DNA of 64,000 nt, from NCBI RefSeq assembly GCF_022045235.1, contig NW_027266266.1:5017848-5081847 (forward strand). The letters run 5' to 3'. The notes beneath the pieces are model-generated. The model did not search any database, was not told the DNA's origin, and worked only from the letters and a program-made list of their open reading frames with translations. Positions within the stretch are counted from its first letter, which is position 1, and every line of letters begins with the position of its first letter. Below are positions 8,718 to 58,112 of this stretch, one piece after another. Both the position numbers and the translations under genes were made by a program. Source of the DNA: Haliotis cracherodii (lineage: Eukaryota).

Positions 8718-9069
8718 ACCGTATTCGACGTAAAAAGCGCCCCGCTCTAATAAGCTCCAACGGCGATATTTGCTAATATATTGACTAGTGAACAATCCCA
8801 ATCAGCACCCCTTCCTATTGATCAATGTACACAAGACTTATTTATTTGTGTATAATATACACTTGTGTGTTATATGCGCTTTAATTATGGGCAATTAAAT
8901 TCTGGAAAAATATATCTGTCGTATGTCAACATTTCCGGCTGTCAGCATAAACCACAAAATTTACGATCTTTCAGCTCGTTTTTTTTTCACCAAAATAATT
9001 TTCTAATAAGACCCCCCTATTTCTAATTTTGAGAGCACCCTGGGCGCTTATTACGTCGAATACGGTATT
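8718..9069. mobile_element. MITE-like element, about 350 bp, with about 27-bp TIRs (ACCGTATTCGACGTAAAAAGCGCCC)
   Basis: Left end is accgtattcgacgtaaaaagcgccccgctctaataagctcc. Right end is ttctaataagacccccc...gagagcaccctgggcgcttattacgtcgaatacggtat. Confidence 0.6.
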
Positions 9070-11075: not shown

Positions 11076-12744
11076 CTTACCATTGCAACATTTAGGCAGA
11101 CGTCAAACTTCCATAGTTACGATATATAAAATTGGATTGTTTTCATCTGAATTTTTTAAAGCTTCTGACAGGAAATTTTGGGCAAAAAATCTGAACCCTC
11201 CCACAAAAGGTCTTGCCTTCTATGAATAACACAGATAAATCGTCTTCAAGTGAACGTTGATAACATGTTTTGAAAGTGCATGAAATCCACATATATAATG
11301 TATACAGTTATTTATCTAGACCTGCTCAGAGGTCGATTATCCTTGCAAACAGCTGTAGCCGATGTTACTAAAAACTCCAAATGGGATTAAATTTCCTATT
11401 TCATGTTAATAAAGTCATAACTATAAATGTGATGGCTAGGTCCGGGTGACTCATGTCACTGATAACATGCATGAAATCCCCCGCCAATATGACATGTCCG
11501 GTTGTGTGCAATGCATTAGCTCCTGTGAACTATGTTCACTGGGCCTTTTTGTAAATGGCATAATTGCAGCACTAAAAAAAGTTATTACTGGTGTTGTTTT
11601 GCCATCTGCAGTTTATGATCCGTGTCCATGAAACTTTTGGAGGAACATACACACAAGCAATGCAGAACTTACCAACAAGAAAGGAAATGTATTCAATACT
11701 GCGAGATGACACTATGCGCGAAGTTTAGTGAAGAAATATGGTACATTTTTCAGGGTCTGCTCCGGAAACGAGGACTACCACCATTTTCAGTCTAATTCAA
11801 AGTTGTTGCCATGAAAACTCAAAAAATGATTTTTCTAAAAATCCCATCCTATCAAAAGGCACCAGTTCACCACTAGACCTATCTATGTGCCACGTTTGGT
11901 TAAGAAATATGGTACGGTTTTCAACATCTGCTCTGGAAACGAAATGTGACAGACGGAAGGATGGAAGGACGGCACCCATTCCCATATCCCCCTTCCACTT
12001 CATAGCGGGGGATAAAAAGGACCATCAAACATGAAGAGGCCATTATGTTTGAATAAACATTATTGCACATTAATTAGTATTAACAGTTCCCTGACAAATA
12101 GTCTAAGAGGTATATGTGTGTAATCATTGTTATCGTTGCTTACTTGTTGACATGACCGATAGCTTGGCTGCGGGAATGTTTTATGACAGAAATGCAGTGC
12201 TCCAGATAAGCTGCGTATATGCGTAAAATACGCATCAGAAATGCAGAAACACGCAGTAAAATAAAATCCAAGCGTATCAAATACGCAACGAACATTACAG
12301 ATACGCTACAAAAATAAAACTTGTGCGTATCATCAAAATATTGTGAAGTAACCCTGCGTATTCGATTAGCAAATCAGCAACTTATTTTGAAATTATAAAC
12401 GGACATTCCGTCAAGCTTGCCAATCTCCACGATGACAGTTACATCATGATCATTTGCCATCACACTTTCTTGTGGAAGTATCATCTTATAAAGATCTCGA
12501 ACCCACACGACACCAGTTTGCAGGGACTAGATGAATAATGTTTTGAAATATTTAACTTAAATACCCACATGTGAAAAAACTAGTGGGTAACAGAAATTTG
12601 AATACCCAGATAGAATTACTGATACCCAATGATTATAAAATGCATGGGTAAAATACCCACAACACCAAAAGCTAATCTGGACCTCTGGAGATGGGGTCAC
12701 TCTTGGGAAGTAGCCCACTCCCACACACTTGACAAGAAGTCCAG

Positions 12745-25659: not shown

Positions 25660-25945
25660 TCTTTGAGGGGGCACGGGGAGCCCAGTCGTCTAAGGCGCCG
25701 CGATTCGCTGTGCAGAGTTGCGTCCCTTGGGCACGCCAGAAACCTATGATTGTTGGTTCGAATCGAATCGCCCCGATTATGTTTCTAGGTTTGTCAGCAT
25801 CATACCCGTGCTCGTGGGTTTCACCGAAGTGGTAAACGTCTGAGACCTGCATTGCTTCAGGCTTTCCTCCCACATTAAGCTGACACTGTAATACTGTTAA
25901 AAGCGGCGTTAAACCCAACTCACTCACTCACTCACTCACTTTGAT
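25660..25945 (+). mobile_element. SINE family B, about 60 bp upstream of the MVP start-codon exon acceptor
   Basis: gggggcacggggagcccagtcgtctaaggcgccgcgattcgctgtgcagagttgcgtcccttgggcacgccagaaacctatgattgttggttcgaatcg...ctgttaaaagcggcgttaaacccaactcactcactcactcactcac. Confidence 0.85.
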
Positions 25946-26033
25946 CTTTGATCTTTGATCTGATCTATGCTTGCAGTATGTGTAAGCTGTATGTGTTGTA
26001 TGTTCAGCTGAGGTTACCCAATAGACACACACG

Positions 26034-26173
26034 ATGTCTGCACCACGAAGATCTGTGGAGGAGTCCTTGTACAGGATCCCTCCCTACTACTATATCCACT
26101 GCTTGGACCAGAACACCAACGTCACACGGCTGGAGATTGGGCCAAAGACGTACATCAGACAGGACAATGAGAG
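26034..26173 (+). CDS. MVP: Major vault protein exon 1 (ATG at 26034; [47 protein letters not shown])
   Basis: Translation matches the human MVP N-terminus ([33 protein letters not shown]). Donor is AG|GTGAGA, ending in phase 2. An acceptor-like tgtatgttcag lies 27 nt upstream of the ATG. Confidence 0.9.
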
Positions 26174-26394
26174 GTGAGATTAAGTACTAGTTTTGGAGTA
26201 TATAAACAGAAAAGAGATTAGACTTTGGCTTCAAGCATATTACATGTATGATGGAGGACATTGACAGGAGACAAGGGTTGAGAAAGGTGAAGCAGGAAAT
26301 GAATTATCTGAGATACAGGGAAAAAATATAAAAGAATACAAATATTTTCAGTGTTGAATAAGAACTCTTGAAACAAAAGCAGTCTCAAAATGTT

Positions 26395-27055
26395 TAACAC
26401 AAAAGAATAACAGAACAAAAGAATAATAGAACAAAAGAATAATAGAACAAATGAATAATAGAACCAATGAATAATAGAACAAAAGAATAATAGAACAAAA
26501 GAATAATAGAACAAAAGAATAATAGAACTAATGAATAATAGAACAAAAGAATAATAGAACAAAAGAATAATAGAACAAAAGAATAATAGAACCAATGAAT
26601 AATAGAACAAAAGAATAATAGAACAAAAGAATAATAGAACAAAAGAATAATAGAACCAATGAATAATAGAACAAAAGAATAATAGAACAAAAGAATAATA
26701 GAACCAATGAATAATAGAACAAAAGAATAATAGAACCAATGAATAATAGAACAAAAGAATAATAGAACAAAAGAATAATAGAACCAATGAATAATAGAAC
26801 AAAAGAATAATAGAACAAAAGAATAATAGAACCAATGAATAATAGAACAAAAGAATAATAGAACAAAAGAATAATAGAACAAAAGAATAATAGAACAAAA
26901 GAATAATAGAACCAATGAATAATAGAACAAAAGAATAATAGAACCAATGAATAATAGAACAAAAGAATAATAGAACAAAAGAATAATAGAACAAAAGAAT
27001 AATAGAACCAATGAATAATAGAACAAAAGAATAATAGAACAAAAGAATAACAGAA
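26395..27055. repeat. Minisatellite in MVP intron 1: 16-bp unit AATAATAGAACAAAAG, with variant ...GAACCAATG, x about 41
   Basis: Direct periodicity. It generates the long artefactual minus-strand ORFs 26218..27140. Confidence 0.95.
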
Positions 27056-27385
27056 CTACAGAAACATGAAAGAATCGGGTGTTCTTCAACTTCTTTAGCA
27101 TTCCATGATAACTAAGAAACAGATATTGGCAAAAGAGCATATTATAGAAAACTGTTAGTAACTTATTTTATTTTTTGTGAAATCATAGAAAAGCTGAATT
27201 ATACAAAATAATAAAGTTGGTACATCTTCAGTTGGTGATGGTTCCTATTTCAAGATAGAAAATGGCTGGAAAGTCAAAGAGGAGGAGACTTATGTGAGAA
27301 GTTAACACCTTCATATTTTGCGAAGTGAAAATATAAGAGTTAAAATAAGTATTGGGCCACACTTTACTCTAAATGCACATTCCAG

Positions 27386-27581
27386 GGTTGTCCTCGGCCC
27401 CGAGAAGATGCTGGTGGTGCCCCCTCGCCACTACTGCGTCGTTGAGAACCCCGTCGTCCGCAACAAGGACGACCACATCGTGTGTAATGAGAGTGGTCAG
27501 GCCAAGCTGTTCCACGCTGATCAGGAGATCCGCCTGGCTCAGGACCCCTTTCCTCTGTACCCTGGGGAGGTGCTCAAACAG
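27386..27581 (+). CDS. MVP: MVP exon 2 ([65 protein letters not shown])
   Basis: Acceptor is tccag|G. Frame is anchored by ORF 27318..27764. Matches human MVTVPPRHYCTVANPV...[23 protein letters not shown]. Donor is CAG|GTGGGA. Confidence 0.93.
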
Positions 27582-28010
27582 GTGGGAATAAATACTTATC
27601 TCACACACCAGAACACCCCGAGTCAGAGACCAGGGTTGCGTTCACTTTCAAGACTTATTGTCTCCCCCTGCTTTTTTATAATATGGAAGAATGTTCTGTC
27701 AAAAGTTGATATTCCAACTTCAGACTGGTCTAAACGGAGGATATGTTGTATTATGAAAAAGTAAAGAATTGTTTTACTCTTGGAGAAAGCTAAGTAATTG
27801 AACCGATCTATTTTGTTGTTAAATTATGAAGTATACTTCCTGACTTTTGATAGGAATGTTTGTATCCTTTCGTGATATTCAAAGATGATTCTCATATGTC
27901 AATTGTTTATCTAAATAGAAAAATATCTGAATATTCCTATCAAGAGTTGTGTCGTATACATATATTTCATGGAATGTACTATTAATATGATAATAACATT
28001 TGTATTGCAG

Positions 28011-28134
28011 CCTGTCACTCCACTGAAAGTAGTACCTGCCAACTCGGCGCTTCGTCTCCGGTCAATCCTGGACTTTGAGGATGAGACTGGGGAGAAGAGG
28101 ACTGCAGGGGACGAGTGGTTGTTTGAGGGACCAG
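28011..28134 (+). CDS. MVP: MVP exon 3 ([42 protein letters not shown])
   Basis: Acceptor is ttgcag|CCT. Frame is anchored by ORF 27969..28181. Matches human [41 protein letters not shown]. Donor is CCAG|GTATGT, ending in phase 1. Confidence 0.93.
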
Positions 28135-28267
28135 GTATGTACAGTCGTGGGCTGCTTTCTTCAGGAAGTCAGATTACCTGATGCTGATGCTGACCTCTGT
28201 TCGAGCCTTAAAGAAGTGATATGAAAAACAATGATGCTTTTGGGACATGAAATCAAATTTGTTTGTA

Positions 28268-28478
28268 ATTTAACGCAGCTGTCAGCAATATTCAAGCTAC
28301 ATGTGTATATGGAGGTAGTCTGTTGATAATCGAGTCTGGACCAAACAATAACAACACGAGCATCGATCTACACCATTGGGATACAAGAGGTTGTAATCAA
28401 TCAAGTCACTGAGTCTGACTACCTGATCCAGTTGGTCACCTTGTACGAACAGCATAGGTTTGCTGGGGAACTATTTTC
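28268..28478 (-). mobile_element. SINE family C (in MVP intron 3)
   Basis: acgcagctgtcagcaatattcaagctacatgtgtatatggaggtagtctgttgataatcgagtctggaccaaacaataacaacacgagcatcgatctacaccattgggatacaag...gcataggtttgctgggg. Confidence 0.7.
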
Positions 28479-29982
28479 TTACTGGAATCCTATGTCGTTA
28501 CGAGATTGCTAACTTGAGCCCTGGCAAAGAGCTAATTTGCCTGGAATACCTGCTTTGTTTGGAGACAGGGTTAATACTGATACCAAGTTTGGAATGCTGA
28601 TGAAGCAATTATGAATTCCATGTATGTGTGATTGCTCAGTATGGTGGTCTTATTTAGGAAGATTCCATACTTTAACATAGACTTGCAATCGGTGGGATTT
28701 CTGTAGTCAACATGACAAGATCCAGGCAGCCAAATAAAATTGCTTGAGAAATTCACGATTGATTTAAGTTCAGTTTAAGAAAATATTACAACTTTGATAA
28801 AATAAATTACATTACATTAATTACTTAAACTGTTTTTATTTACCATATTTAGAATAGAAGAAACAGTAATATACTTTGAACAGACTAATAGCATATGTAC
28901 TAATATGGTCATGTGTATGGCAGCAGAGTTGTGTCTAAAGTAGACATTGAATCAGTTTCTTAAAATAGCTTTTGATGAATGCTGCACTGAATGGTGAAAG
29001 GGGAGGTAATAAGGCAGCTAGCCAAAATGTCCTGTTGGCAGGTGATCATCCAAAGCATGATGAAACTCTTGGAAATCGGTACGGATCTGACTAAGGTTTA
29101 TTTTTGTACAGTAACCTAAACTATTGCATCTCTCAACAGTGTTAACAGTCTGTTAGGTATATAATACATATTTAACAACACAAAGTGTTGTATATTACTG
29201 GTATATCTCAATTGGCCCTAATAAAGAACAAATATATTTAATAATGTACAACATATTGATAAAAATGATGTTGGGGACAATCCATAAAATATTACACATT
29301 TTGGTTAATCTGTTTTTAATACGATTTTTATGTGTTTTATTGTATAACAATGGTAACATTGTTAATTCTGCCATATGTTATGGAGTTTTATTCATTTATT
29401 AGATTATTGTAAACCTCTTCAGGGAAAATAACCTTGAATTTCTTCAGGAAAAATAGCCTTGAACAAGTTGATTGCTTTTGCATGGAAATACTTCTTTGTT
29501 CTATTGAATTTAAATTTGGTCAAAATTAATAACATGTAGTCAATTTTGTTTGTTGTATGATAAGGAACAATTTAATGGATATTTATTGATATTATTTGAT
29601 GTGACATTATGTTAAGCTCGGGAAAATCATTGAAGGAGTTAATGTATTAGATCTTGATCAGAGATGAGTGATATACAGGATCACATCAAATACATGAAAC
29701 TCAAGTTTTGTTCTTACACAAATCTTTCACGAGATGTTTTGATCTATTCACATATACTACTCAAAAGAAGTTAAGGATCACCCGATTCTTTCATAATGGT
29801 AAAGTTAATCTGTCATGAGAAATTAGCTATAGTAATATGAAAGAATCAGGTGATCCTTAACTACTTTTGAGTAGTATATTATTTACATTTTTCATCAAGG
29901 TTGATAGTCAGAGTTACTGTTTATCAAATCTAGTTTGTGGAAACTAAATTGTAAATCTAATTTCCCCTATGTAACTGTCCAG

Positions 29983-30209
29983 GCACATACATCCCCCGTA
30001 AGGAGGTAGTAGTGGAGGAGACGATCCGGGCCACCGTCATCAAGCCTAACCAAGCTATCCGGCTGAGGGCTCGCAAAGAGTGCCTGGACCGTGACGGCAG
30101 TGCGCGGGTCACAGGGGAGGAATGGCTGGTCAAGAAGACTGGAGCATACCTGCCTGGAGCCTACGAGGAAGTTGTCGATGTTGTCAATGCTTATGTTCTC
30201 ACCGAGAAG
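29983..30209 (+). CDS. MVP: MVP exon 4 ([76 protein letters not shown])
   Basis: Acceptor is tgtccag|GC. Frame is anchored by ORF 30012..30284. Near-identical motif order to human [49 protein letters not shown]...ILTEK. Donor is AAG|GTCAGT. Confidence 0.93.
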
Positions 30210-30439
30210 GTCAGTTTTCTGCATTGTTTTGTTTATATATGCTACTTAAAAGAGTTGAAGAACACCCATTTTTCTTTCACGTGAGAGTAGTCTGTCATGG
30301 CTGGCGGGTATTGCAACACACTGCATTGTGTGTGTTCTTGAATTTCTTTTGAGTAGTATATATGAATCCAAATAACACTTTATCCTAATTCATTTCCCTG
30401 TGGGGATTACGGGTTACAATATGGCGCCAGCTACCTGTG

Positions 30440-30592
30440 CTGGTTTGAAAGAGGCAGTCAAATGGGTCGGAGGGTCAGACTCGGTGACTTGGTCGCGTGT
30501 CATCAAACTCCGATGGCGTGTATCGTTGTTCAAAATATCCATGGATTATCGGGACCAGACTCAATTATTTACACCCAACATGAGGCTGAAAT
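30440..30592 (+). mobile_element. SINE family C fragment (in MVP intron 4)
   Basis: tgtgctggtttgaaagaggcagtcaaatgggtcggagggtcagactcggtgacttggtcgcgtgtcatcaaactccgatggcgtgtatcgttgttcaaaatatccatggattatcgggaccagactcaattatttaca. Confidence 0.6.
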
Positions 30593-30947
30593 AGGCTCAG
30601 TTTGGAGTTATTGAGTGCATTTTCTTCAATGAAAAATCCTGGGGACAATAACAAATACAAGTTGAGTTATTTGTAGAGAGTTATCGGTAGAGAGGAGTGT
30701 CAGTGTTAGGCTATTTCAGACAAGATTGAACTTACATCATCAGAAATGCTTTGTCATATGAAAGAAATCTGAGTTAATGAGGCCTACTGTGTATAATTTG
30801 TGTATTCAATGGGTTAAACTAAAGGATTTTTCCTTTTTGGTGAAAGATACTGATTTTGCCACAATGTTAAAATGATTAAAATTTGCATGTCAAAGTGAAT
30901 GATTGCTGTATCATTGAACAGTTCGGTGATTACTCAACAATGTCTGG

Positions 30948-31117
30948 GTGTTCGGGTAGCCTAGTGGTTAAAGCGTTCACTCGTCATGCCGAAGACATGG
31001 GTTCGATTCCCGACATGGGTAAATTGTGTGAAGCCCATTTCTGGTGTCCCCCGCCGTGATGATGCTGGAATAAATACCATACTCGCTCACTCACTCATTC
31101 ACTCACTTTACAATGTC
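30948..31117 (+). mobile_element. SINE family A (in MVP intron 4)
   Basis: gggtagcctagtggttaaagcgttcactcgtcatgccgaagacatgggttcgattcccgacatgggtaaattgtgtgaagcccatttctggtgtcccccgccgtgatgatgctgg...ctcactcactcattcactcac. Confidence 0.8.
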
Positions 31118-31171
31118 TAGACTTCAAGTGTGAAACATTTTCACTATATATCATATTTACTTCTTTTGCAG

Positions 31172-31297
31172 AAAGCACTTCACATGCGTTCACTGAAGAC
31201 TTTCAAGGATGACTTCAGCATTGTGAGAAAGAATGGAGAGGAATGGTTGATCACAATGACGGACACCGAGACCCACATCCCGGGGGTGTACGAGGAG
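31172..31297 (+). CDS. MVP: MVP exon 5 (KALHMRSLKTFKDDFSIVRKNGEEWLITMTDTETHIPGVYEE)
   Basis: Acceptor is ttttgcag|AAA. Frame is anchored by ORF 31130..31549. Matches human [42 protein letters not shown]. Donor is GAG|GTGAGT. Confidence 0.92.
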
Positions 31298-31488
31298 GTG
31301 AGTACAAGCGTACCCAAACACACAGTACACTCAATTTTTCTCACTAAACATTTACATTCAAATATAAAAGTGATAAATAGGTTTTTAAAAAACTGGTTCA
31401 TTCTGTACAGAAAATTTCAAAGGATTCAAAATATATTGGTTGGTTGGTATTTAGAGCTACAATTATTTGTAGTATGTTCTTATGGGTC

Positions 31489-31792
31489 TGGGGGACATGG
31501 ATGGCCCAGTCGTCTAAGGCGCCACTATTCGCTGTGCAGAGTTGCATAGTTGCGTCCCTTGGGCATGCCAGAAACCTATGATCTTGGGTTCGAATCCTGG
31601 TTCGCCTCGATTATGTTTCTAGGCATGTCAGCACCATGCCCGTACTCGTGGGTTTCACCAAGGTGGTGAACGTCTGAGACCTGCATCACTTCAGGCTTTC
31701 CTCCCACATTAAACTGACACGCCGTGATATAACTGGAATACAGTTAAAAGTGGCACTCACTCACTCACTCACTCACTGACTGTCTATCCTAT
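31489..31792 (+). mobile_element. SINE family B (in MVP intron 5)
   Basis: gggggacatggatggcccagtcgtctaaggcgccactattcgctgtgcagagttgcatagttgcgtcccttgggcatgccagaaacctatgatcttgggttcgaatcctgg...ggcactcactcactcactcactcac. Confidence 0.85.
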
Positions 31793-31978
31793 GCCTGTAT
31801 CTGTAGGACCGCCTCTGGGGAGACATCAGCTCAGAGATCAGTAAAACGTTCTGAGATGTTTTATTGCAAATAAAATTGATTCATGAAACTGTTTTCCTAT
31901 TAAATTGTTTATCACTGTTTTGTGCAGTAAATTAATTAACAATGTGTACATGCTATTATCAGTATGTTTGTGTTTCAG

Positions 31979-32089
31979 GTTGTGGGAGTAGTGAACATCA
32001 CCACTCTAACTAACCGTCAGTACTGTGTGATTCTCGACCCCGCCGACGAGAGCGGCAGACCACAGCTGGGGAGGAAGAAGCTTATCAAG
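31979..32089 (+). CDS. MVP: MVP exon 6 ([37 protein letters not shown])
   Basis: Acceptor is tgtttcag|GTT. The exon is 37 codons and runs phase 0 to phase 0. Matches human [37 protein letters not shown]. Donor is AAG|GTAATA. Position is not anchored by an ORF-track entry, so it may be off by 1 nt. Confidence 0.88.
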
Positions 32090-32094
32090 GTAAT

Positions 32095-33425
32095 ACACGT
32101 TCCGTAACGTAACTCACTCCGTACCATCACACATCATCACATCACTCACATACACCATTACACATCACCATAACATCACTCACACCACCATCACACATCA
32201 CCGTAACATGACTAACACCACATCACATGTCATCACATCACTCACACAACATCACACATCACCGTAACATCTCTCACACCCTCCATCACACATCACCGTA
32301 ACATCACTCACACCACATCACACATCACCGTAACATCTCTCACACCCTCCATCACACATCACCGTAACATCACTCACACCACCATCACACATCACCGTAA
32401 CATCACTCACACCCACCATCACACATCACCGTAACATCACTCACACCCACCATCACACATCACCGTAACATCTCTCACACCCACCATCACACATCACCGT
32501 AACATCGCTCACACCCACCATCACACATCACCGTAACATCACTCACACCCACCATCACACATCACCGTAACATCACTCACACCACCATCACACATCACCG
32601 TAACATCACTCACACCCACCATCACACATCACCGTAACATCTCTCACACCCACCATCACACATCACCGTAACATCGCTCACATCCACCATCACACATCAC
32701 CGTAACATCACTCACACCCACCATCACACATCACCGTAACATCACTCACACCCACCATCACACATCACCGTAACATCTCTCACACCCACCATCACACATC
32801 ACCGTAACATCACTCACACCACCATCACACATCACCGTAACATCACTCACACCCACCATCACACATCACCGTAACATCACTCACACCCACCATCACACAT
32901 CACCGTAACATCACTCACACCCACCATCACACATCACCGTAACATCACTCACACCACCATCACACATCACCGTAACATCACTCACACCCACCATCACACA
33001 TCACCGTAACATCACTCACACCCACCATCACACATCACCGTAACATCACTCACACCCACCATCACACATCACCGTAACATCACTCACACCACCATCACAC
33101 AACACCATAACATCGCTCACACCCATCACAGAACACCATAACATCACTCACACCCATCACAGAACACCATAACTTACCTCACATCCACCATCACACAGCA
33201 CCATAACATCGCTCACACCAACCATCACACATCATCACATCACTCACACCACCATCACACATCATCACATCACTCACACCCTCCATCACACATCACCGTA
33301 ACATCACTCACACCACCATCACACATCATCACATCACTCACACCCTCCATCACACATCACCGTAACATCACTCACACCACCATCACACATCATCACATCA
33401 CTCACACCCTCCATCACACATAATC
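32095..33425. repeat. Minisatellite in MVP intron 6: about 41-bp unit (CATCACACATCACCGTAACATCACTCACACCCAC) x about 32, beginning about 10 nt after the exon-6 donor
   Basis: Direct periodicity over 1.3 kb. Each unit contains CCGTAACA, which echoes the exon-6 donor context aagGTAATAcacgttccGTAACGTAAC. Confidence 0.95.
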
Positions 33426-33619
33426 AAGGTAACACGTTCCTTTTAATCACACACAATCAAGCTGTGCCTCATCAGTCTGGTAAAGGCATTATGATAATTT
33501 TAAAGAAATTTTCCATTTCAAACTTTAATGCACATTATTAATTTTCTTCATTATACAACTGACAATTAGACTGTAATTTACATAATCAGCATGTTTAAAA
33601 TTTGTTTGTTTTCCTTCAG

Positions 33620-33745
33620 GGAGAGAAGTCCTTCTTCTTGTTGCCGGGTGAGCGGCTTGAGAAGGGAATTCAGAATGTGTACATCCTGGGAGAAGACGAG
33701 GGTCTCATCCTCAGGGCTAACGAGTGCTTCAAGGACAAGGATGGC
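33620..33745 (+). CDS. MVP: MVP exon 7 ([42 protein letters not shown])
   Basis: Acceptor is ttccttcag|GGA. Frame is anchored by ORF 33602..33910. Matches human [37 protein letters not shown]. Donor is GGC|GTGAGT. Confidence 0.92.
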
Positions 33746-34487
33746 GTGAGTGAAACTATTATCTACACATCTGATAACATAGGAGAACCATGTTTCCTGC
33801 ATGGAACTCGCAACACAAAGTTTTATTTCTTGCATCACATTGGTAACATATTGAAAACATTGGTACCAGATTACCATGGTAACCTATTTTCCTGTGAGGA
33901 TGCATCTTAATTTCAAAATTGTCTTCATACTTTATTTGATTTTATCGGCTTGATCTGGGAACAACATTCTGAAGTGTCACTGTAGTATTTAATGTACAGC
34001 AGTCTGAGACATTTGACTTTTAAAGACTATCGATAGTCGCAGGACTAGTGCAAACATGCTTCACTTGTCACTGGTTCAGATTTATCGCCCATAAATGTTT
34101 CTAGTTATTCAGGACTGACATCATTTTATTAAGTTTTCCTCGGCACTATTTCAGGGACAACAGTACTCCAACTCTGTCATCTCGGCAATTCATTTAGCCC
34201 ATGTTATCACCAGATGCCAATAAGCACTGAACACCACTCAAACCGGTCAAGATGATAGTCCATGATAAATTTTGAATCCGTGAAGAAAAAGCCATCCAAA
34301 TTTCAACACTTCCAAAGGTGCAGAGTTGTTTCCCTTTAGCAGTGCCTGGCAAGCAGACAAGTATGATTTTCTAGTGTGGATTCAGCAACCTTTTGTATGC
34401 TCTTGCTAATAATATTCATTACAATATTTTCGTCAGGTGCACATGGTCCAAGATGGGAAAACAGATTAATGTTATTGTTTTGTGTAG

Positions 34488-34637
34488 GGAGATGAGCGTA
34501 ACCCTGGAGATCGATGGATGATCCGTGGACCCACCGAGTATGTTCCCCCCGTGGAGGTGGAGGTGGTGATGAAACGTCAGGCCATCCCACTGGACGAGAA
34601 TGAGGGGATATATGTCCGAGACATCAAGAATGGCAAG
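34488..34637 (+). CDS. MVP: MVP exon 8 ([50 protein letters not shown])
   Basis: Acceptor is ttgtgtag|GGA. Matches human [45 protein letters not shown]. Donor is AAG|GTATAT. Position cross-checked against the start of antisense ORF 34336..34590. Confidence 0.92.
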
Positions 34638-35139
34638 GTATATAGAAATGAATGTATTCAAGTTTGAAACAAACATGAAAAGAAATACTGGATTTCAGGG
34701 CAGAATGTATCCCTCAGGTAAATGAGGACCAATGGTAACCATGTATAGTCTTGATTGATGTGTCATTACACTCAGTACCGGCCCAATGACCTGAGGCTTC
34801 TTAAGAGGCTGGATTACCTCCCTTAGCCATATCAGGATCAGCTGGTCAAAGAACGCAATGACATATTATGCTTTTTTGGTTTTTAAGCACGATATATATG
34901 CTAATTTGTTGCAAGTGGTCAAGTTCTTCAGTGTGTAAGAGTTTGGATGGTCCTCCCAAATTACTGTCATTTTGGAATGTAACAAATTCTATCGAAGCGG
35001 CGTTATGCACCTAGTACTATAACTCACTCATAGGTGACAATAATTGAGCTCTTTTTGTCCAAGCAAGACAAGAACAGGATACAGAGGAATGTTGAAAAAT
35101 TTCTTCATCTTTGATATTAGATATATCGTGAAGATCTGG

Positions 35140-35345
35140 GTTAAAATAGGTCTTCAGCAACCCATGCTTGTCATGAGAGGCGACAAGCAGGATCGGATGG
35201 TGACTCGGTAGATGCATCTCATCATGTTCTATTTGCGTAGATCAATGCTCATGTTGTCAAGCACTGGATTGCTTGTCCAGATTTGATCATCTACACACTA
35301 TCATCATATAGCTGGAATATTGCTGAGTGTGGCATTAACCTACAG
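35140..35345 (+). mobile_element. SINE family C (in MVP intron 8)
   Basis: gggttaaaataggtcttcagcaacccatgcttgtcatgagaggcgacaagcaggatcggatggtgactcggtagatgcatctcatc...catatagctggaatattgctgagtgtggcattaacc. Confidence 0.75.
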
Positions 35346-35412
35346 AAAAAGAAATGAAAAAAAGTTATATCCTGAACCAAACTTGACCCCTCTCTGTTAT
35401 ATTTGATCTCAG

Positions 35413-35648
35413 GTGCGTGCCATCACTGGGGAGACCTACATGTTGAACCAGGATGAGGAACTGTGGGAGAAGACACTTGCCCCTATTGTAGAGAATCTCC
35501 TCGCGATTGGTAAGGACCCTCTCGCTGACCGTAGTGACCGGGGACGTGACGTCGCAGCTAAGCCACGTGACAAGACACGTGTCGTCACCTTTAGAGTCCC
35601 CCACAATGCAGCAGTCCAGATCTATGACTACAAGGACAAGAAGGCCAG
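35413..35648 (+). CDS. MVP: MVP exon 9 ([79 protein letters not shown])
   Basis: Acceptor is gatctcag|GTG. Frame is anchored by ORF 35413..35700. Matches human [40 protein letters not shown]...[24 protein letters not shown]. Donor is AG|GTTGGT, ending in phase 2. Confidence 0.93.
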
Positions 35649-36103
35649 GTTGGTCACTCTTCACATCCTCATTGTCAGGCAAAGCTGTTGGATTTTCTGA
35701 ATCTGAGACTCGGTCAGATGAGAAACGCAAGGATCAGAGACTCAATATCCTGAGATCTTTTTTCATAAAATTACTGTGGCCGTTCTCTGATCCAGGTGAC
35801 AACATGATAGCTTAACCAATTGACAAAAGTCATAAATATTGCAAATTGATTAATTTTGGTTTCAGTTCACTTGACTGAAGTGTCCTTTATCTGAAACAGT
35901 ATTTATTATTTTTATCCTACCAAACAGTCTTTTGATTAGACTACCGATATATAATGTTGATATTCATGTATGCTGAAGAAGAACTTCTTGATCATGTTAT
36001 CAAGGCTTGTATGTAAATTTTGATAAAATGTGTTGAATTGAATTTAAAGGAAAGTTTTGTTGACATCTTGAACTGTTTAAGATTTAGTCACGTTGTGTTT
36101 CAG

Positions 36104-36301
36104 GGTTGTGTTTGGACCTGAGCTGGTGATGTTGGGCCCTGACGAACAATTCACACAGCTCAGTCTGTCTGGAGGCAAGCCCAAGAAACCCAACGTCATC
36201 AAGAGTTTGTGCTTGCTTCTCGGACCAGACTTCTGTACTGATATCATCGTCGTGGAAACCGCTGACCACGCCCGTCTGTCACTGCAGCTATCATACAACT
36301 G
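36104..36301 (+). CDS. MVP: MVP exon 10 ([67 protein letters not shown])
   Basis: Acceptor is gtgtttcag|G. Frame is anchored by ORF 36093..36305. Matches human [66 protein letters not shown]. Donor is TG|GTAAGT. Confidence 0.94.
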
Positions 36302-36697
36302 GTAAGTTTGAACATCTCATACTAATGCATGTGGAGGATAGCACCTGTTTAGTGATAGTTGGTTTAAACAAGGTTCATATTTTCATGATACTGATTTCAA
36401 GTATTTATTCATTATGGCATCTGAATTCAGCACTTTTGTTGACTGTAGTTATATACAGTGAAGCATTCATCAGTGATTTATCCAGGAATCCCCTGGGAGG
36501 CAACTTGAGAAAAAGTCATTTTGTTCAAAATTGAATTTTGACAGAATAACTATGGTACTATAAAAGAATCAACTGATTCTTAGCTTCTTTTGAGCAGTAT
36601 ACGGTAATGGCTTTTTGTTTTTTTGAAAATTATGTTAGACCATGAAAGTTGTGTCAGTTCTTATCGACTGTGTCTAATATCTTGTGTACTTGTGTAG

Positions 36698-36839
36698 GCA
36701 TTTTGAAGTGCTGGAGAAGTCGGAAGGAGAGGCGGCTAAACTGTTCAGTGTCCCAGACTTCACAGGAGATGCTTGTAAGGCCATTGCTTCCCGGGTCCGA
36801 GGGGCAGTCGCCCAGGTCCAGTTCGATGATTTCCACAAA
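36698..36839 (+). CDS. MVP: MVP exon 11 ([48 protein letters not shown])
   Basis: Acceptor is tgtgtag|G. Frame is anchored by ORF 36684..36887. Matches human [48 protein letters not shown]. Donor is AAA|GTGAGT. Confidence 0.94.
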
Positions 36840-36865
36840 GTGAGTAACTGTTGTTATTTTCCACC

Positions 36866-37400
36866 CCAATCGAGATATGTGATATAGTGGTTTTACTCTC
36901 CTAGTAGTTATATATAGATATGTGATATAGAGGTTATACTCTTCTAGTAGTTATATATAGATATGTGATATAGTGGTTTTACTCTCCTTGTAGTTATATG
37001 TAGATATGTGATATAGAGGTTATATACTCTCCTTGTAGTTATATATAGATATGTGATATAGAGGTTATACTCTTCTAGTAGTTATATATATATATATGTG
37101 ATATAGTGGTTCTACTCTCCTAGTAGTTATATATAGATATGTGATATAGAGGTTATACTCTTCTAGTAGTTATATATAGATATGTGATATAGTGGTTTTA
37201 CTCTCCTTGTAGTTATATGTAGATATGTGATATAGAGGTTATATACTCTCCTTGTAGTTATATATAGATATGTGATATAGAGGTTATACTCTCCTAGTAG
37301 TTATATGTAGATATGTGATATAGAGGTTATATACTGTCCTTGTAGTTATATATAGATATGTGATATAGAGGTAATACTCTCCTTGTAGTTTTTATATATA
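36866..37400. repeat. Tandem repeat in MVP intron 11: about 43-bp unit (ATATGTGATATAGAGGTTATACTCTTCTAGTAGTTATATATAG) x about 12
   Basis: Direct periodicity, beginning about 27 nt after the exon-11 donor. Confidence 0.9.
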
Positions 37401-37606
37401 TATAGATATATCCACATTTATTACAACCCTTTGTAAGCAACATCCCCATGCTCGTGGATGTAAAAGATCTCAAGTCCTGTATCATTTTTGACACTGTACA
37501 CTTTTTTTGTTATAACCATTGTTCATTACAAGAATATGTACAACTTATACACAACAAATGGCTGGGACAAAAAAGCAGTTCGTTATATACGCAAGTTCGT
37601 TATAAG

Positions 37607-37800
37607 CGGGGCGGTCGGGTAGCCTAGTGGTTAAAGCGTTCGCTCATCACGCTAAAGACCCAGGTTCGATTCCCGACATGGGTACAATGTGTGAAGCCCA
37701 TTTCTGGTGTCCCCCGCCGTGATATTGCTGGAATATTGCTAAAAGCGGCGTGAAACCATACTCACTCACTCACTCACTCACTCACTCACTCACTCACTCA
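37607..37800 (+). mobile_element. SINE family A, full-length reference copy (in MVP intron 11)
   Basis: gggtagcctagtggttaaagcgttcgctcatcacgctaaagacccaggttcgattcccgacatgggtacaatgtgtgaagcccatttctggtgtcccccgccgtgatattgctggaatattgctaaaagcggcgtgaaaccat(actc)n. Confidence 0.85.
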
Positions 37801-37944
37801 CTCGTTATAAGCGTGTTCGTTATGAAAATAGTTTACTGTATTGTTAAAAGCAATGTTAAATGTATCTAACTCACTCCGTTGATGTGATCAAAAGAATGTA
37901 CTTTTCTAATTGTGGTGGGAGATATTAAAGACATGCATCAATTT

Positions 37945-38030
37945 GGGACACCCCATGGGTACTCCTGGCAGGGATAGTTCCACGTACTCCATGGGTACTC
38001 CTGGCAGGGATAGTTCCACGTACTCCATGC
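37945..38030. repeat. 39-bp direct duplication (CCATGGGTACTCCTGGCAGGGATAGTTCCACGTACT x2)
   Basis: Exact tandem duplication. Source of ORF 37910..38092. Confidence 0.85.
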
Positions 38031-38200
38031 TTGTCACAAGAGCAAACTCTCAACCACGGGGTTTGCCTGACTGGCAGCCATCTCAGAGTTGAGTTATGCA
38101 TCCTTGAGTTATCTATGAAATGAAATATGAATTCATTTCTATTTTTATTTATTTTAATTATATGTTACTTATTAATATCATCAACCACCATATTTTCCAG

Positions 38201-38412
38201 AACTCTGCCAAGATCATCCGTGCATCTGTGTTTGGTATTGACGACAAGAGCAAGGTGAAGGAGAAGTTCACCTTCCCCCAGAACAACCTTCACATCACCA
38301 GCATTGACATCCAGTCTGTGGAGCCCGTCGACCAGCGCACACGGGATTCTCTCATGAAGTCCGTGCAGCTGGCCATTGAAATCACCACCAACTCCCAGGA
38401 AGCTGCTGCCAG
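38201..38412 (+). CDS. MVP: MVP exon 12 ([71 protein letters not shown])
   Basis: Acceptor is tattttccag|AAC. Frame is anchored by ORF 38120..38416. Matches human NSARIIRTAVFGF...[47 protein letters not shown]. Donor is AG|GTAACC. Confidence 0.94.
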
Positions 38413-38469
38413 GTAACCATGGCAACGATGATTCATAACACTTCCTTATCCAATCAACAGACTTCTGAT

Positions 38470-38695
38470 TCTCACTCGTGTGGGGCGACTATGCTTGTCG
38501 TAAAAGGCGACTAACGGGATCGGGTGGTCAGGCGTGCTGACTTGGTTGATGCATGTCATCGTATCCCAATTGCGAGGTTCGATGCTCATGATGTCAATCA
38601 CTGGATTTTCTGGTCCAGACTTGATTATTTTCAGACTGCCGTCATGTTGCTGGAATATTGCTGAGTGGGACGTTAAACAACAAACAAACAAAACA
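38470..38695 (+). mobile_element. SINE family C (in MVP intron 12)
   Basis: gtggggcgactatgcttgtcgtaaaaggcgactaacgggatcgggtggtcaggcgtgctgacttggttgatgcatgtcatcgtatcccaattgcgagg...gctgagtgggacgttaaacaacaaacaaacaaaac. Confidence 0.85.
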
Positions 38696-38823
38696 TTCAT
38701 CCAATGGATAAAGTTACTTTCCATGTTTCAACTTTTATGTGACAATAATGTTTACAGCTGACTTTATTTATCCTTCTCCAACATTGGACAGTCGTTTATA
38801 CGTATATTACATTGTCTTCACAG

Positions 38824-39067
38824 ACATGAGGCTGAGCGTCTGGAGCAGGAGGCCAAGGGTCGCCTGGAGCGTCAGAAGATCAGTGATGAGGCCGAGGCTG
38901 AGAGGTCCCGCAAGGAGTTGCTGGAGCTGCAGGCCAACAGCGCTGCTGTGGAGAGCACCGGGCAGGCCAAGGCAGAGGCTCAGTCCCGGGCTGAGGCCGC
39001 CAAGATCGAGGGAGAGGCTGCTGTAGAGCAGGCTAAGCTGAAGGCACAAGCCATGAAGATTGAAGCT
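38824..39067 (+). CDS. MVP: MVP exon 13 ([81 protein letters not shown])
   Basis: Acceptor is cttcacag|A. Frame is anchored by ORF 38918..39349. Matches human [83 protein letters not shown]. Donor is GCT|GTAAGT. Confidence 0.94.
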
Positions 39068-39341
39068 GTAAGTTTGCGGAGTTATTTCGTTGCAGTGCTT
39101 CTTATGCCAAAGGGTTTCAAGAAATTCTCCATTTCTGAGAGAATTTCATTATCGGTCTCCATGCCGTTTGTTCCTGTAATCTGGTCAGTCAGTTTACTGG
39201 TTGGGTCACTTGTCACTTGTTTGAATATTTTAATTAGTCTGAAGTCCTGCATTGCCCTTGTAACATTATTGAAGGAAATGATTCTTACATTTGTACATTC
39301 TTTTGGGGCTATATATAGGCTGTTTCTTCTTCTAGGGTTGG

Positions 39342-39465
39342 TGGGGTAGCCTAAAGCTTTTGCTTGTCATGCCAAAGACCCAAGTTCGGTTCCCCACATG
39401 GGTACAATGTGTGAAGCCCATTTCTGGTCTCCCCTGCCGTGATGTAAAACCATACGAACTCTTCT
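39342..39465 (+). mobile_element. SINE family A, 5' part (in MVP intron 13)
   Basis: ggtggggtagcctaaagcttttgcttgtcatgccaaagacccaagttcggttccccacatgggtacaatgtgtgaagcccatttctggtctcccctgccgtgatg. Confidence 0.65.
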
Positions 39466-39501
39466 TCTTCTACTTCTATTGACATTTTATTTTGATTACA
39501 G

Positions 39502-39846
39502 GAGTCCGAGCTGGAGCGTCTCACCCAGGCACGTGATGCTGAATTGAGGTACGTCAAGGAACAGAATGATCTTGAACTTGATAAATCCCGCGAGGTCTCT
39601 TCCATTGAGACCCAGAAGTTCAAGGAAATGGTCAGTGCAGTGGGGGCAGACACTCTGCGCACGATGGCTTCCGCTGGGCCGGAGTTGCAGGTGAAGCTGC
39701 TGCAGTCTCTGGGACTCAAGTCCACACTGATCACTGATGGCAGCAGCCCCATCAACCTGTTCAACACCGCCAACGGCCTCATCGGTGGAATGGTGCCGTA
39801 CAAGAAGCGCAAGACTGGAGAGAGTGATGAAGAAGATGAAGCATAA
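39502..39846 (+). CDS. MVP: MVP exon 14, terminal ([114 protein letters not shown])
   Basis: Acceptor is ttgattacag|GAG. Frame is anchored by ORF 39544..39846, which ends in TAA at 39844-39846. Matches human ...[56 protein letters not shown]. Confidence 0.94.
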
Positions 39847-40139
39847 AGAGAGCATTTTGATTGGTTAGGTGTAACAGAAACGAAATGATTGGTCGAATGA
39901 TGTTGGCGCTGACATTTGTATTTTCTTGTGTTTTCCATTGTTTGAGTATCAGTGTGATGTCATTAAGAATGTCAGTGTTGCTGTGTGGAGCCTGTATCAA
40001 TGACATGACCCACAGTAGGACCATAGACTTGATTGGAATTCAGTATGGAATATAATCATTTACCGACTGACCTATCATTTCTAACAGACCAAGTCAAGCT
40101 ATTGTTTATTTTGTTGAAAAACATGCATATGCTCAATGA

Positions 40140-47055: not shown

Positions 47056-47689
47056 TCAGATTCTGGTGACTTATGGCCATTGTATAAAGTCCATCATGTA
47101 ACTACTGTACAAGCTGAAACAAACAATTTGAGACGCGCAACAAAAATATAGTTTAAAAACATGAAACTAATCTAAGAAAATACATGATTAGGAAAATACA
47201 TTGTGTACAAATGGGATTGAATAATACAAGTGTGCTATTATGCTCGTTGCAATGCTATATTTCTGACAACATTCTATGAATAAATACTGGTAACATAAGC
47301 TGAAGCCAATCTGACAGCACACGGTAACTGAAGTTGTGGACAGTCGTGTAAAATCCTCAAACAAGATCACACCTTTTTTTCACTGTTCTTGATAAGGCGC
47401 CATTTATCATATCATCCAAACCTGGCTTCCACAGCAGATACCACCTGGGATATATTGGGACAACGAATTGCATCACAATGCTTTGCAGACCATTGGGGAA
47501 GTCATCAGGCACATGACATCACCGATCTCTTTGTTATTGAGGATGGTTAGCAGTGCTTTTTATACTCAAGACACTGGTTATTACTATTTACAAAATAAAA
47601 CTGGGTGGACGAATGATCTGAATGATAAATACAATCTCACCCTTGTGTCTTTGGATGTCAAATATTTCAACACTCTGGATGAAATGCTT

Positions 47690-47948
47690 ATATTATATAT
47701 ATCAACACTTGTGGATGAAAGTTTGATATCAAATATATCAACACTCGTGAATGAAAGTTTGATATCAAATATATCAACATTCATGGATGAAAGTTTGATA
47801 TGAAAAATATCAACACTTGTGGATGAAAGTTTGATATGAAATATATCAACACTCGTGGATGAAAGTTTGATATGAAATATATCAACACTCGTGGATGAAA
47901 GTTTGATATGAAATATATCAACACTCGTGGATGAAAGTTTCATATCAA
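47690..47948. repeat. 36-bp tandem repeat x7 (ATATCAACACTCGTGGATGAAAGTTTGATATGAAAT)
   Basis: Direct periodicity. Source of ORFs 47468..47803 and 47584..47961. Confidence 0.9.
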
Positions 47949-48187
47949 ATATCCTCGGCAACCCTTGGAGTCTTAAATTTTATCCCCATATGTTGATATA
48001 TTTGATATCAGAAGACACTCGAGTGAGATGCTCTACGTATCAAAGTGGGTAGGTTATACACATGCACAAACATGACAAAGAGACTTTAACTTTTAAAATT
48101 TCAATATCTGCGCCATAGTTAGAACTGTACTGAACAAGCCATTCATATCTTTTCTTAAGAAATGAGAACTCACGTAAACTAAAAGTT

Positions 48188-52379: not shown

Positions 52380-52865
52380 CATCTCTAGTAACACCCCATC
52401 TCTAGTAATAGCCCATCTATAGTAACAGCCCATCTCTAGTAACACCCCCATCTATAGTAACAGCCCATCTCTAGTAACACCCCCATCTATAGTAACTCCC
52501 CATCTCTAGTAACAGCCCATCTCTAGTAACAGCCCATATCTAGTAACACCCCCAAAACTAGTAACACCCCCATCTCTAGTAACATCCCCATCTCTAGTAA
52601 CACCCCCATCTCTAGTAACAGCCCATCTCTAGTAACACCCCCATCTCTAGTAACAGCCCATCTATAGTAACAGCCCATCTCTATTAACACCCCCATCTAT
52701 AGTAACAGCCCATCTCTAGTAACACCCCCATCTATAGTAACTCCCCATCTCTAGTAACAGCCCATCTCTAGTAACAGCCCATCTCTAGTAACACCCCCAT
52801 CTATAGTAACACCCCAATCTCTAGTAACACCCCCATCTCTAGTAACACCCCCATCTTGTTGTGTA
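52380..52865. repeat. 17-bp tandem repeat x about 28 (CCCCATCTCTAGTAACA, with AGCCCATCT variants)
   Basis: Direct periodicity. Confidence 0.9.
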
Positions 52866-57800: not shown

Positions 57801-57910
57801 ACTTGGCTATATTTGGACATATAATGATATGATGTGCGCCAAAGCAGGCAGGTTGTATTTGGACAGAATATACCGCATGTCGCGTTGAATAATTCCTCAA
57901 TATTGTTTAC

Positions 57911-58112
57911 CTTTGTCTTTGTTGGACTGTTCTTCATTCCACAGCCGCTTCACTCTATCAGTGAGTTCCGTCTTTTCACAGCACCCCTTGTAATCGACAA
58001 AGTTGTTTGCAAGGACCTCTTTCAGTTGCCTGACCGTCAGTGTGTCGACTTCCCCCACAGTGGCAATATTTTCAAGCCTCATACGCGGGACTCGGTCTAA
58101 CGTTGGTGACTC
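57911..58112 (-). CDS. RNF34-like pre-RING exon ([67 protein letters not shown])
   Basis: Frame is anchored by ORF 57897..58136(-). Acceptor is ggtattgcag|GAG and donor is AAAG|GTAAAC, ending in phase 1. This fits the 2-nt phase of the downstream RING exon. Matches human RNF34 [43 protein letters not shown]. Confidence 0.8.

What the first reader, a model, noticed from the sequence alone, without database searches (positions are those of the whole stretch)
26034..39846. Complete major vault protein gene resolved into 14 coding exons
Every exon translates to a segment collinear with human MVP (about 858 aa). The match runs from IPPYHYIHVLDQN at the N-terminus through FGPELVSLGPEEQF and LCLLLGPDF to the coiled-coil ...[23 protein letters not shown]. 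The C-terminus is acidic/basic ([14 protein letters not shown]), unlike the human Pro/Gln-rich tail. Splice phases are internally consistent: total CDS 2577 nt, all junctions GT-AG. This gives a full exon-intron model of a vault-particle gene in what is probably a non-vertebrate metazoan, with introns carrying SINEs and minisatellites.
Basis: partly seen in the sequence, partly recalled or inferred. Interest (0 to 1): 0.5.

Follow-up and report, generated by a model that had tools for sequence, protein, structure and literature searches.

The report
Abalone major vault protein gene
This stretch holds an intact, ordinary 14-coding-exon gene for the major vault protein of an abalone (Haliotis), and its product is identical to a protein already annotated in the public black abalone genome.

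Summary
Window 26034-39846 (+) holds 14 coding exons joined by 13 GT-AG introns. The CDS is 2577 nt including the TAA stop and encodes 858 aa.

The product carries all Pfam vault-repeat and shoulder domains. It aligns end to end with rat MVP solved structures at 66% identity.

It is residue-for-residue identical to RefSeq XP_071093773.1, "major vault protein-like [Haliotis cracherodii]". The window is therefore black abalone DNA, or a near-identical relative, and the gene model is already public.

- All 13 intron positions and phases are shared with limpet, mussel, brachiopod or acorn-worm MVP genes.
- Against the H. rufescens orthologue there are 42 synonymous and 2 non-synonymous codon changes, so the gene is under purifying selection.
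- The basic-then-acidic C-terminal tail is typical of lophotrochozoan MVPs, not a peculiarity of this gene.
- The introns do carry minisatellites (introns 1, 6, 11) and tRNA-derived SINEs (introns 3, 4, 5, 8, 11, 12, 13). One of these (intron 11) and one 93 nt upstream of the ATG are insertions absent from H. rufescens.

Verdict: a real, well-resolved but already known gene. Interest is low.

The parts
26034..26173 (+). MVP coding exon 1 (ATG at 26034; ends in phase 2)
   Evidence: There is an in-frame TAG at 26022-26024 upstream. Possible acceptors (TTGCAG, GTTCAG) lie 30-60 nt upstream of the ATG, which suggests a separate non-coding 5' exon (inference).
27386..27581 (+). MVP coding exon 2 (196 nt)
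   Evidence: Exon size is conserved in Lottia, Mytilus and Lingula.
28011..28134 (+). MVP coding exon 3 (124 nt)
29983..30209 (+). MVP coding exon 4 (227 nt)
31172..31297 (+). MVP coding exon 5 (126 nt)
31979..32089 (+). MVP coding exon 6 (111 nt)
33620..33745 (+). MVP coding exon 7 (126 nt)
   Evidence: Its 3' junction lies in the only variable, indel-prone loop.
34488..34637 (+). MVP coding exon 8 (150 nt)
35413..35648 (+). MVP coding exon 9 (236 nt)
36104..36301 (+). MVP coding exon 10 (198 nt; start of shoulder domain)
36698..36839 (+). MVP coding exon 11 (142 nt)
38201..38412 (+). MVP coding exon 12 (212 nt; end of shoulder, start of cap-helix)
38824..39067 (+). MVP coding exon 13 (244 nt; cap-helix coiled coil)
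39502..39846 (+). MVP coding exon 14 (345 nt including TAA stop; cap-helix end, cap-ring, basic/acidic tail)
26399..27056 (.). Minisatellite in intron 1: 16-mer ACAAAAGAATAATAGA x 41
   Evidence: Intron 1 is 1212 nt here and 591 nt in H. rufescens.
32102..33421 (.). Minisatellite in intron 6: C-rich 34-mer x 40
   Evidence: The 32001-34000 composition window that contains it has GC skew -0.62. Intron 6 is 1530 nt here and 870 nt in H. rufescens.
36873..37410 (.). Minisatellite in intron 11: 43-mer x 12
25667..25941 (+). SINE family B copy, 93 nt upstream of the ATG. It has an (ACTC)n tail and a TTTGATCTTTGA target-site duplication, and is absent in H. rufescens.
28258..28457 (-). Old SINE family A copy in intron 3 (69% identical to the intron 12 copy)
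30946..31107 (+). SINE family C copy in intron 4 (tRNA-like head)
   Evidence: (Rfam tRNA 25.2 bits at 30950-31021, below the 29-bit cut-off, full model length)
31491..31781 (+). SINE family B copy in intron 5
35164..35354 (+). SINE family A copy in intron 8
37603..37803 (+). SINE family C copy in intron 11. It has a tRNA-like head, an (ACTC)n tail and a GTTATAAGCG target-site duplication, and is absent in H. rufescens.
38484..38695 (+). SINE family A copy in intron 12 ((CAAA)n tail)
39352..39443 (+). Partial SINE family C copy in intron 13

Best explanation
[quoted passage not shown] The species is Haliotis cracherodii or a near-identical relative. Thirteen canonical GT-AG introns are spliced out to give a 2574-nt ORF plus a TAA stop, encoding an 858-aa protein. 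By homology with rat and human MVP, the N-terminal repeat domains, shoulder domain, long cap-helix and cap-ring let 78 copies self-assemble into the hollow vault particle. The short C-terminal tail (KKRK...SDEEDEA) would sit at the outer caps. Shown here: the exon model, the domain content, collinearity with solved MVP structures, identity to the RefSeq protein, conserved intron positions and purifying selection. Inferred from family knowledge: particle assembly and cellular role. The introns have accumulated lineage-specific minisatellite expansions and tRNA-derived SINE insertions that leave the coding sequence untouched.
For: The 14-exon GT-AG model with no in-frame stops was derived independently and re-derived by an exact spliced aligner. 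Pfam hits are Vault (1.2e-68, 4 stretches), Vault_2 (2 stretches), Vault_3, Vault_4 and MVP_shoulder (1.6e-53), all far above their cut-offs. PDB rat and human MVP chains hit at E = 0; query residues 7-839 align to the rat chain with 552/833 = 66% identity and only 16 gap positions. The model equals P0001 = XP_071093773.1/774/775, "major vault protein-like [Haliotis cracherodii]". H. rufescens differs at 2 residues and H. asinina at 29. Twelve of 13 junctions fall in indel-free conserved blocks of a 120-sequence alignment. All 13 intron positions and phases are shared with at least two of Lottia, Mytilus, Lingula and Saccoglossus. The CDS against H. rufescens shows 44 nt differences, 37 at third codon positions, 42 synonymous and 2 non-synonymous codons. 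Flanking and intronic DNA is only about 90-95% identical. Literature: MVP architecture is R1-R9, shoulder, cap-helix and cap-ring; the particle is a 78-mer; the human gene has 15 exons (PMC7916137). MVP is widespread in metazoa including bivalves (PMC3762200).
Against: NCBI gene models normally draw on RNA-seq, but I could not inspect that evidence. Junction 7 lies in a variable loop where an alternative acceptor (34496) is also in frame; the RefSeq protein matches the 34487 choice. No vault RNA or other vault component lies in the window, so nothing here bears on the rest of the particle.
Confidence: 0.97

Rival explanations
1. The locus is a recently inactivated or redundant MVP paralogue or pseudogene that merely still looks intact.
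For: Nothing positive.
Against: The ORF is complete and all splice sites are canonical. Synonymous to non-synonymous codon changes against H. rufescens are 42:2, with 37 of 44 differences at third positions. The exon structure is identical in H. rufescens. NCBI annotates it as a protein-coding gene with three transcript accessions.
Confidence: 0.02
2. The gene is real, but the true mature mRNA differs from this model, for example through another acceptor at intron 7, extra micro-exons, or alternative first or last coding exons.
For: Junction 7 sits in a variable loop with a second in-frame AG at 34496. Three RefSeq accessions exist for the same protein, which implies transcript variants. These probably differ in UTRs.
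Against: The model reproduces the RefSeq protein exactly. The length and every junction align without indels to 119 homologues, except in the variable loop. The same intron positions occur in four other phyla.
Confidence: 0.05

Closest known systems
RefSeq XP_071093773.1 / XP_071093774.1 / XP_071093775.1, major vault protein-like [Haliotis cracherodii]
   Same: Identical 858-aa sequence. This is the same gene.
   Different: Nothing at the protein level. The RefSeq transcripts probably add UTR exons that I could not see.
Haliotis rufescens MVP-like (XP_046353824.2; locus L001, JALGQA010000021.1)
   Same: Same 14 exons with identical sizes and phases. There are 2 aa differences and the CDS is 98.3% identical.
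   Different: Introns 1, 6 and 11 are 320-660 nt shorter because the minisatellite arrays are smaller. The SINE insertions at window 25667-25941 and 37603-37803 are absent.
Rat and human major vault protein (PDB 4V60, 4HL8, 2QZV, 7PKR and others)
   Same: Collinear over residues 7-839 at 66% identity to rat. The domain order is the same: repeats, shoulder, cap-helix, cap-ring. The human gene also has about the same exon number, 15 exons (PMC7916137).
   Different: The R7-R8 and shoulder loops are shorter (16 gap positions). The C-terminal tail is basic then acidic ([14 protein letters not shown]), whereas in my recalled human sequence it is longer and Pro/Gly/Gln-rich.
Other lophotrochozoan MVPs (Lottia gigantea, Mytilus trossulus, Lingula anatina)
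   Same: 82-83% identity with similar lengths (858-862 aa). They share intron positions and have the same type of basic-cluster plus acidic C-terminal tail.
   Different: Individual intron losses: Lottia lacks intron 6, Mytilus lacks introns 3 and 10, and Lingula lacks intron 5. Lingula and Saccoglossus have an extra intron in the last exon.

Membership tests
Major vault protein (MVP) | N-terminal array of vault repeat domains (Pfam Vault, Vault_2, Vault_3, Vault_4) | tested here: met
   PF01505 at 1.2e-68 (4 stretches), PF17794 at 5.2e-35 (2 stretches), PF17795 at 6.4e-37 and PF17796 at 4.2e-20, all above the curated cut-offs.
Major vault protein (MVP) | Shoulder domain following the repeats | tested here: met
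   PF11978 MVP_shoulder at 1.6e-53, residues 519-636, covering the full profile 1-118/118.
Major vault protein (MVP) | C-terminal cap-helix and cap-ring collinear with solved MVP structures | tested here: met
   residues 7-839 align to rat MVP 3-850 (4hl8_A) at E = 0. Identity is 66%. Residues 741-839 also match the isolated C-terminal chain 9z5n_B (1.2e-30).
Major vault protein (MVP) | Orthology: same gene structure as MVP genes of other animals | tested here: met
   all 13 introns share position and phase with MVP genes of Lottia, Mytilus, Lingula or Saccoglossus.
Major vault protein (MVP) | Self-assembly of 78 copies into a vault particle | not testable with these tools
   Inferred only from 66% identity to rat MVP, whose particle structure is solved. 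It would need expression and electron microscopy.
Major vault protein (MVP) | Association with vault RNA, TEP1 and PARP4 | not testable with these tools
   No Rfam family, including vault RNA, reaches its gathering score in the 64-kb window. The partner genes are expected elsewhere in the genome.
tRNA-derived SINEs (intronic repeats, families B and C) | tRNA-like head with internal pol III A and B boxes | tested here: inconclusive
   Rfam tRNA matches over the full model length (1-71/71) at 30950-31021 (25.2 bits) and 37613-37684 (23.2 bits), below the 29-bit cut-off. B-box-like GGTTCGATTCC and GGTTCGAATC are visible in the sequence. ARAGORN finds no tRNA.
tRNA-derived SINEs (intronic repeats, families B and C) | Short (<500 nt) dispersed multi-copy element with a simple-repeat tail and target-site duplications | tested here: met
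   One search gave 16-31 blastn hits (full and partial matches) per family in 64 kb, on both strands. One search shows (ACTC)n tails, 10-12-nt TSDs and empty orthologous sites in H. rufescens for two copies.

The most novel reading that the evidence does not exclude
The only mildly novel readings left open are two. (i) The conserved lophotrochozoan C-terminal tail has a basic KKRK/KRRR cluster resembling a nuclear localisation signal, followed by a Ser plus acidic run resembling a CK2 site. Displayed 39-fold on each vault cap, it could give invertebrate vaults a regulated targeting function that vertebrate vaults lack. (ii) The species-specific SINE inserted 93 nt upstream of the start codon could alter MVP regulation in black abalone. 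Neither reading is supported by anything beyond sequence pattern.
Probability: 0.1. Interest if true: 0.3.

Novelty: already known. Interest (0 to 1): 0.08.

Why it matters
It matters little beyond bookkeeping. The result shows the first-stage reader can reconstruct a 14-exon eukaryotic gene correctly from raw sequence, since its model is identical to NCBI's annotation. It also identifies the window as abalone (Haliotis) genomic DNA. MVP is a well-studied, widely conserved protein, and an intact orthologue in a mollusc is expected. The by-products are modest: ancient conservation of all 13 intron positions across four phyla, a clade-typical basic/acidic tail, and SINE insertions and minisatellite length changes since the split between H. 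cracherodii and H. rufescens. They may be useful to people working on abalone genomics or on repeat markers.

Tried and rejected
- **Exact-protein look-ups that found nothing.** P0001 (H. cracherodii) and P0115 (Acropora) are not on record in the contig collection. I therefore could not fetch the window's own annotated record or a cnidarian locus, and used H. rufescens, Lottia, Mytilus, Lingula and Saccoglossus instead.
- **First attempt at exon chains.** Deriving them from ungapped tblastn HSPs missed exons, because the internally repeated vault domains confuse greedy chaining. I replaced it with an exact depth-first spliced aligner.
- **Cluster member P0124.** I checked whether this 86-aa Logan contig product gave spliced-transcript evidence. 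It does not: it is exon 9 read through into the intron, that is, unspliced genomic sequence.
- **RNA searches.** Rfam at gathering thresholds and ARAGORN over the whole window found nothing: no vault RNA and no bona fide tRNA.
- **Flanking ORFs.** A Pfam scan of ten flanking ORFs matched only the two RNF34/RFFL-like exons. No gene was identified in the 26 kb upstream of MVP.
- **Antisense ORFs.** I considered and dismissed the long antisense ORFs over exon 14 (39351-39938 and 39496-39855, minus strand). They are artefacts of the stop-poor reverse complement of a Glu/Lys/Ala-rich coiled-coil region, and they overlap a coding exon that is under purifying selection on the + strand.
- **ORFs at 26218-27140 (minus strand).** I dismissed these "FYYSFVLLFF" ORFs as translation of the 16-mer minisatellite.
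- **Structure prediction and fold search** were not run. At 66% identity to solved structures they would add nothing.
Full report
**1. Checking the observation**

A tblastn probe with human MVP found 14 collinear + strand blocks from 26052 to 39786. Per-block identities were 46-76% and E-values reached 1e-30.

I enumerated every in-frame GT/GC donor and AG acceptor combination around each block. Joining the combinations that restore the MVP alignment gave this model:

| Exon | Coordinates |
|---|---|
| 1 | 26034-26173 |
| 2 | 27386-27581 |
| 3 | 28011-28134 |
| 4 | 29983-30209 |
| 5 | 31172-31297 |
| 6 | 31979-32089 |
| 7 | 33620-33745 |
| 8 | 34488-34637 |
| 9 | 35413-35648 |
| 10 | 36104-36301 |
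| 11 | 36698-36839 |
| 12 | 38201-38412 |
| 13 | 38824-39067 |
| 14 | 39502-39846 |

- The sum is 2577 nt including the TAA stop, encoding 858 aa.
- All 13 introns are GT-AG and range from 396 to 1848 nt.
- An in-frame TAG sits at 26022-26024, upstream of the ATG.

The window encodes [13 protein letters not shown] and [14 protein letters not shown]. The C-terminal strings are exact.

**2. What the gene is**

The 858-aa product hits every MVP-specific Pfam family far above its cut-off:

| Pfam family | E-value | Note |
|---|---|---|
| Vault | 1.2e-68 | 4 stretches |
| Vault_2 | 5.2e-35 | 2 stretches |
| Vault_3 | 6.4e-37 | |
| Vault_4 | 4.2e-20 | |
| MVP_shoulder | 1.6e-53 | residues 519-636, full profile |

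Against the PDB it matches rat and human MVP chains at E = 0. Residues 7-839 align to rat residues 3-850. From that printed alignment, identity is 552/833 = 66% with only 16 gap positions.

In the large protein collection the best hit, P0001, is 100% identical over 100% of the length. A string comparison shows the model and P0001 are the same sequence. The cluster look-up names P0001 as XP_071093773.1, XP_071093774.1 and XP_071093775.1, "major vault protein-like [Haliotis cracherodii]".

- The red abalone (H. rufescens) protein differs at 2 residues.
- The H. asinina protein differs at 29 residues.

The window is therefore black abalone genomic DNA, or DNA from an extremely close relative, and the gene is already annotated by NCBI.

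**3. Robustness of the exon model**

An exact depth-first spliced aligner was given only the RefSeq protein and the window. It recovered the same 14 exons.

In a MAFFT alignment with 119 homologues, 12 of 13 junctions lie in blocks with at most a handful of indels. Junction 7 is the exception. It lies in the known variable loop, where a second in-frame acceptor (34496) exists, but the RefSeq protein uses 34487.

The same aligner applied to genomic loci of other species gave these exon counts:

| Species | Locus | Coding exons |
|---|---|---|
| H. rufescens | L001 | 14, identical sizes |
| Lottia gigantea | L002 | 13 |
| Mytilus trossulus | L003 | 12 |
| Lingula anatina | L004 | 14 |
| Saccoglossus kowalevskii | L005 | 13 |

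Mapped onto the protein alignment, every one of the 13 abalone introns shares its position and phase with at least two of the four non-Haliotis species. Seven introns are present in all five species compared, counting the window. The other species differ by single intron losses. Lingula and Saccoglossus also share an extra intron in the last exon. The structure is therefore ancestral to bilaterians, not a peculiarity. The human gene has 15 exons (PMC7916137), a comparable number.

**4. Evidence that the gene is functional**

The CDS differs from the H. rufescens CDS at 44 of 2574 nt (98.3% identity). Thirty-seven of these differences are at third codon positions, and 42 changed codons are synonymous against 2 non-synonymous. 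Introns and flanks align at only about 90-95% identity. This is the signature of purifying selection on a working gene.

**5. How it most likely works**

This section is inference from family knowledge. MVP consists of nine repeat domains, a shoulder domain, a 155-residue cap-helix and a cap-ring. Seventy-eight copies assemble into the roughly 13-MDa vault shell, with N-termini inside at the waist and C-termini at the caps (PMC7916137).

The abalone protein retains all of these segments collinearly at 66% identity. The most likely function is therefore the same self-assembling shell. Assembly itself, and the partners vtRNA, TEP1 and PARP4, could not be tested here. No Rfam family reaches threshold anywhere in the window.

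**6. The C-terminal tail**

It is real and is typical of the clade. After the conserved NLFxxA motif, nearly all of the 40 closest homologues have the same layout: a hydrophobic stretch, then a K/R cluster, then a D/E run. These homologues are gastropods, bivalves, a brachiopod, nemerteans and annelids. Examples are Mytilus AKRSRRTDDEDDD and Pomacea SKRRRLSDDEDNDDV.

Across 118 of the top 120 hits that carry the motif, 56 have both the basic cluster and the acidic end. Deuterostome and cnidarian tails differ. The motif resembles a nuclear localisation signal plus a CK2 site, but that is pattern-matching only.

**7. Intron content**

Tandem Repeats Finder confirms three minisatellites:

| Intron | Coordinates | Unit and copies |
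|---|---|---|
| 1 | 26399-27056 | 16-mer x 41 |
| 6 | 32102-33421 | 34-mer x 40, strongly C-rich |
| 11 | 36873-37410 | 43-mer x 12 |

The 32001-34000 composition window that contains the intron 6 array has GC skew -0.62. These three introns are 320-660 nt longer than in H. rufescens, while most other introns differ by fewer than 25 nt.

Repeat finding and blastn define three dispersed families of about 200-275 nt, with 16-31 blastn hits (full and partial matches) each in the 64-kb window, on both strands.

- Copies lie in introns 3, 4, 5, 8, 11, 12 and 13, and one lies 93 nt upstream of the ATG.
- Families B and C have tRNA-like heads. Rfam tRNA matches the full model length at 25.2 and 23.2 bits, below the 29-bit cut-off, and B-box-like GGTTCGATTCC is visible in the sequence.
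- Families B and C carry (ACTC)n tails. Family A ends in (CAAA)n.
- Two copies, 25667-25941 and 37603-37803, are flanked by 10-12-nt target-site duplications. Both correspond to empty sites in H. rufescens, so they were inserted after the two abalone species split.

**8. Surroundings**

Downstream, on the minus strand, two ORFs are exons of an RNF34/RFFL-like E3 ligase gene:

- 60127-60465 hits PF23632 SAP_RNF34_RFFL at 1e-13.
- 57897-58136 hits PF22968 at 3.9e-20.

No gene was recognised in the 26 kb upstream of MVP. The H. rufescens locus likewise has no other called gene within 10 kb on either side.

**9. Verdict**

The observation and the interpretation are both correct. However, the gene belongs to a thoroughly known family, sits in an expected lineage, and is already present with this exact product in RefSeq. 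MVP has been reported repeatedly in molluscs, for example in mussel proteomes, and is considered ancestral in eukaryotes (PMC3762200).

- Novelty: already known.
- Interest: low (0.08).

Noticed in passing
window 25667-25941 and 37603-37803: Two tRNA-derived SINE copies with (ACTC)n tails and clear target-site duplications (TTTGATCTTTGA; GTTATAAGCG). The orthologous sites in Haliotis rufescens (L001 about 9918 and about 20355) are empty. The insertions therefore post-date the split between H. cracherodii and H. rufescens, and the family was recently active. The first copy sits only 93 nt upstream of the MVP start codon.
   Followed up: partly
window 57897-58136 (-) and 60127-60465 (-): Two exons of an RNF34/RFFL-like (rififylin/CARP) E3 ubiquitin ligase gene on the opposite strand, convergent with MVP. 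Pfam PF22968 hits at 3.9e-20 and PF23632 at 1e-13. The remaining exons, including the RING, were not located.
   Followed up: partly
window 26399-27056, 32102-33421, 36873-37410: The intronic minisatellites differ strongly in length between abalone species. Introns 1, 6 and 11 are 1212, 1530 and 1361 nt here against 591, 870 and 1038 nt in H. rufescens. They could serve as polymorphic markers. The 34-mer array is extremely strand-asymmetric: the 32001-34000 composition window that contains it has GC skew -0.62.
   Followed up: partly
window 61613-62675, 57182-57803, 52380-52856, 59839-60174, 47660-47952, 1671-2003: Further large tandem arrays outside MVP: 76-mer x 14 at 97% identity, 22-mer x 28, 17/35-mer x 27, 95-mer x 3.5, 36-mer x 8 and 17-mer x 19.5. 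Several probably lie within introns of the RNF34-like gene. The window is unusually rich in minisatellites.
   Followed up: no
C-termini of P0001-P0041 (homologues of the product of window 39502-39846): Lophotrochozoan MVPs share a short tail of the form hydrophobic, then a K/R cluster, then a D/E run, often containing Ser (NLS-like plus CK2-like). This pattern is not seen in the echinoderm or cnidarian tails listed. I did not look for any published description of it, and its function is unknown.
   Followed up: partly
L004 (Lingula) 8885-9118 and L005 (Saccoglossus) 12133-12502: Lingula and Saccoglossus share an additional phase-0 intron inside what is the last exon in molluscs (about model residue 808). 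The Lingula copy uses a GC donor. This suggests the ancestral bilaterian MVP gene had at least 14 introns and that molluscs lost this one.
   Followed up: no
window 25960-26033: Two good acceptor-like sites (TGCTTGCAG at about 25976 and TGTATGTTCAG at about 26005) lie just upstream of the ATG. Three RefSeq accessions share the same protein. Together these suggest one or more non-coding 5' exons further upstream, as in the human gene. This was not verifiable without transcripts.
   Followed up: no
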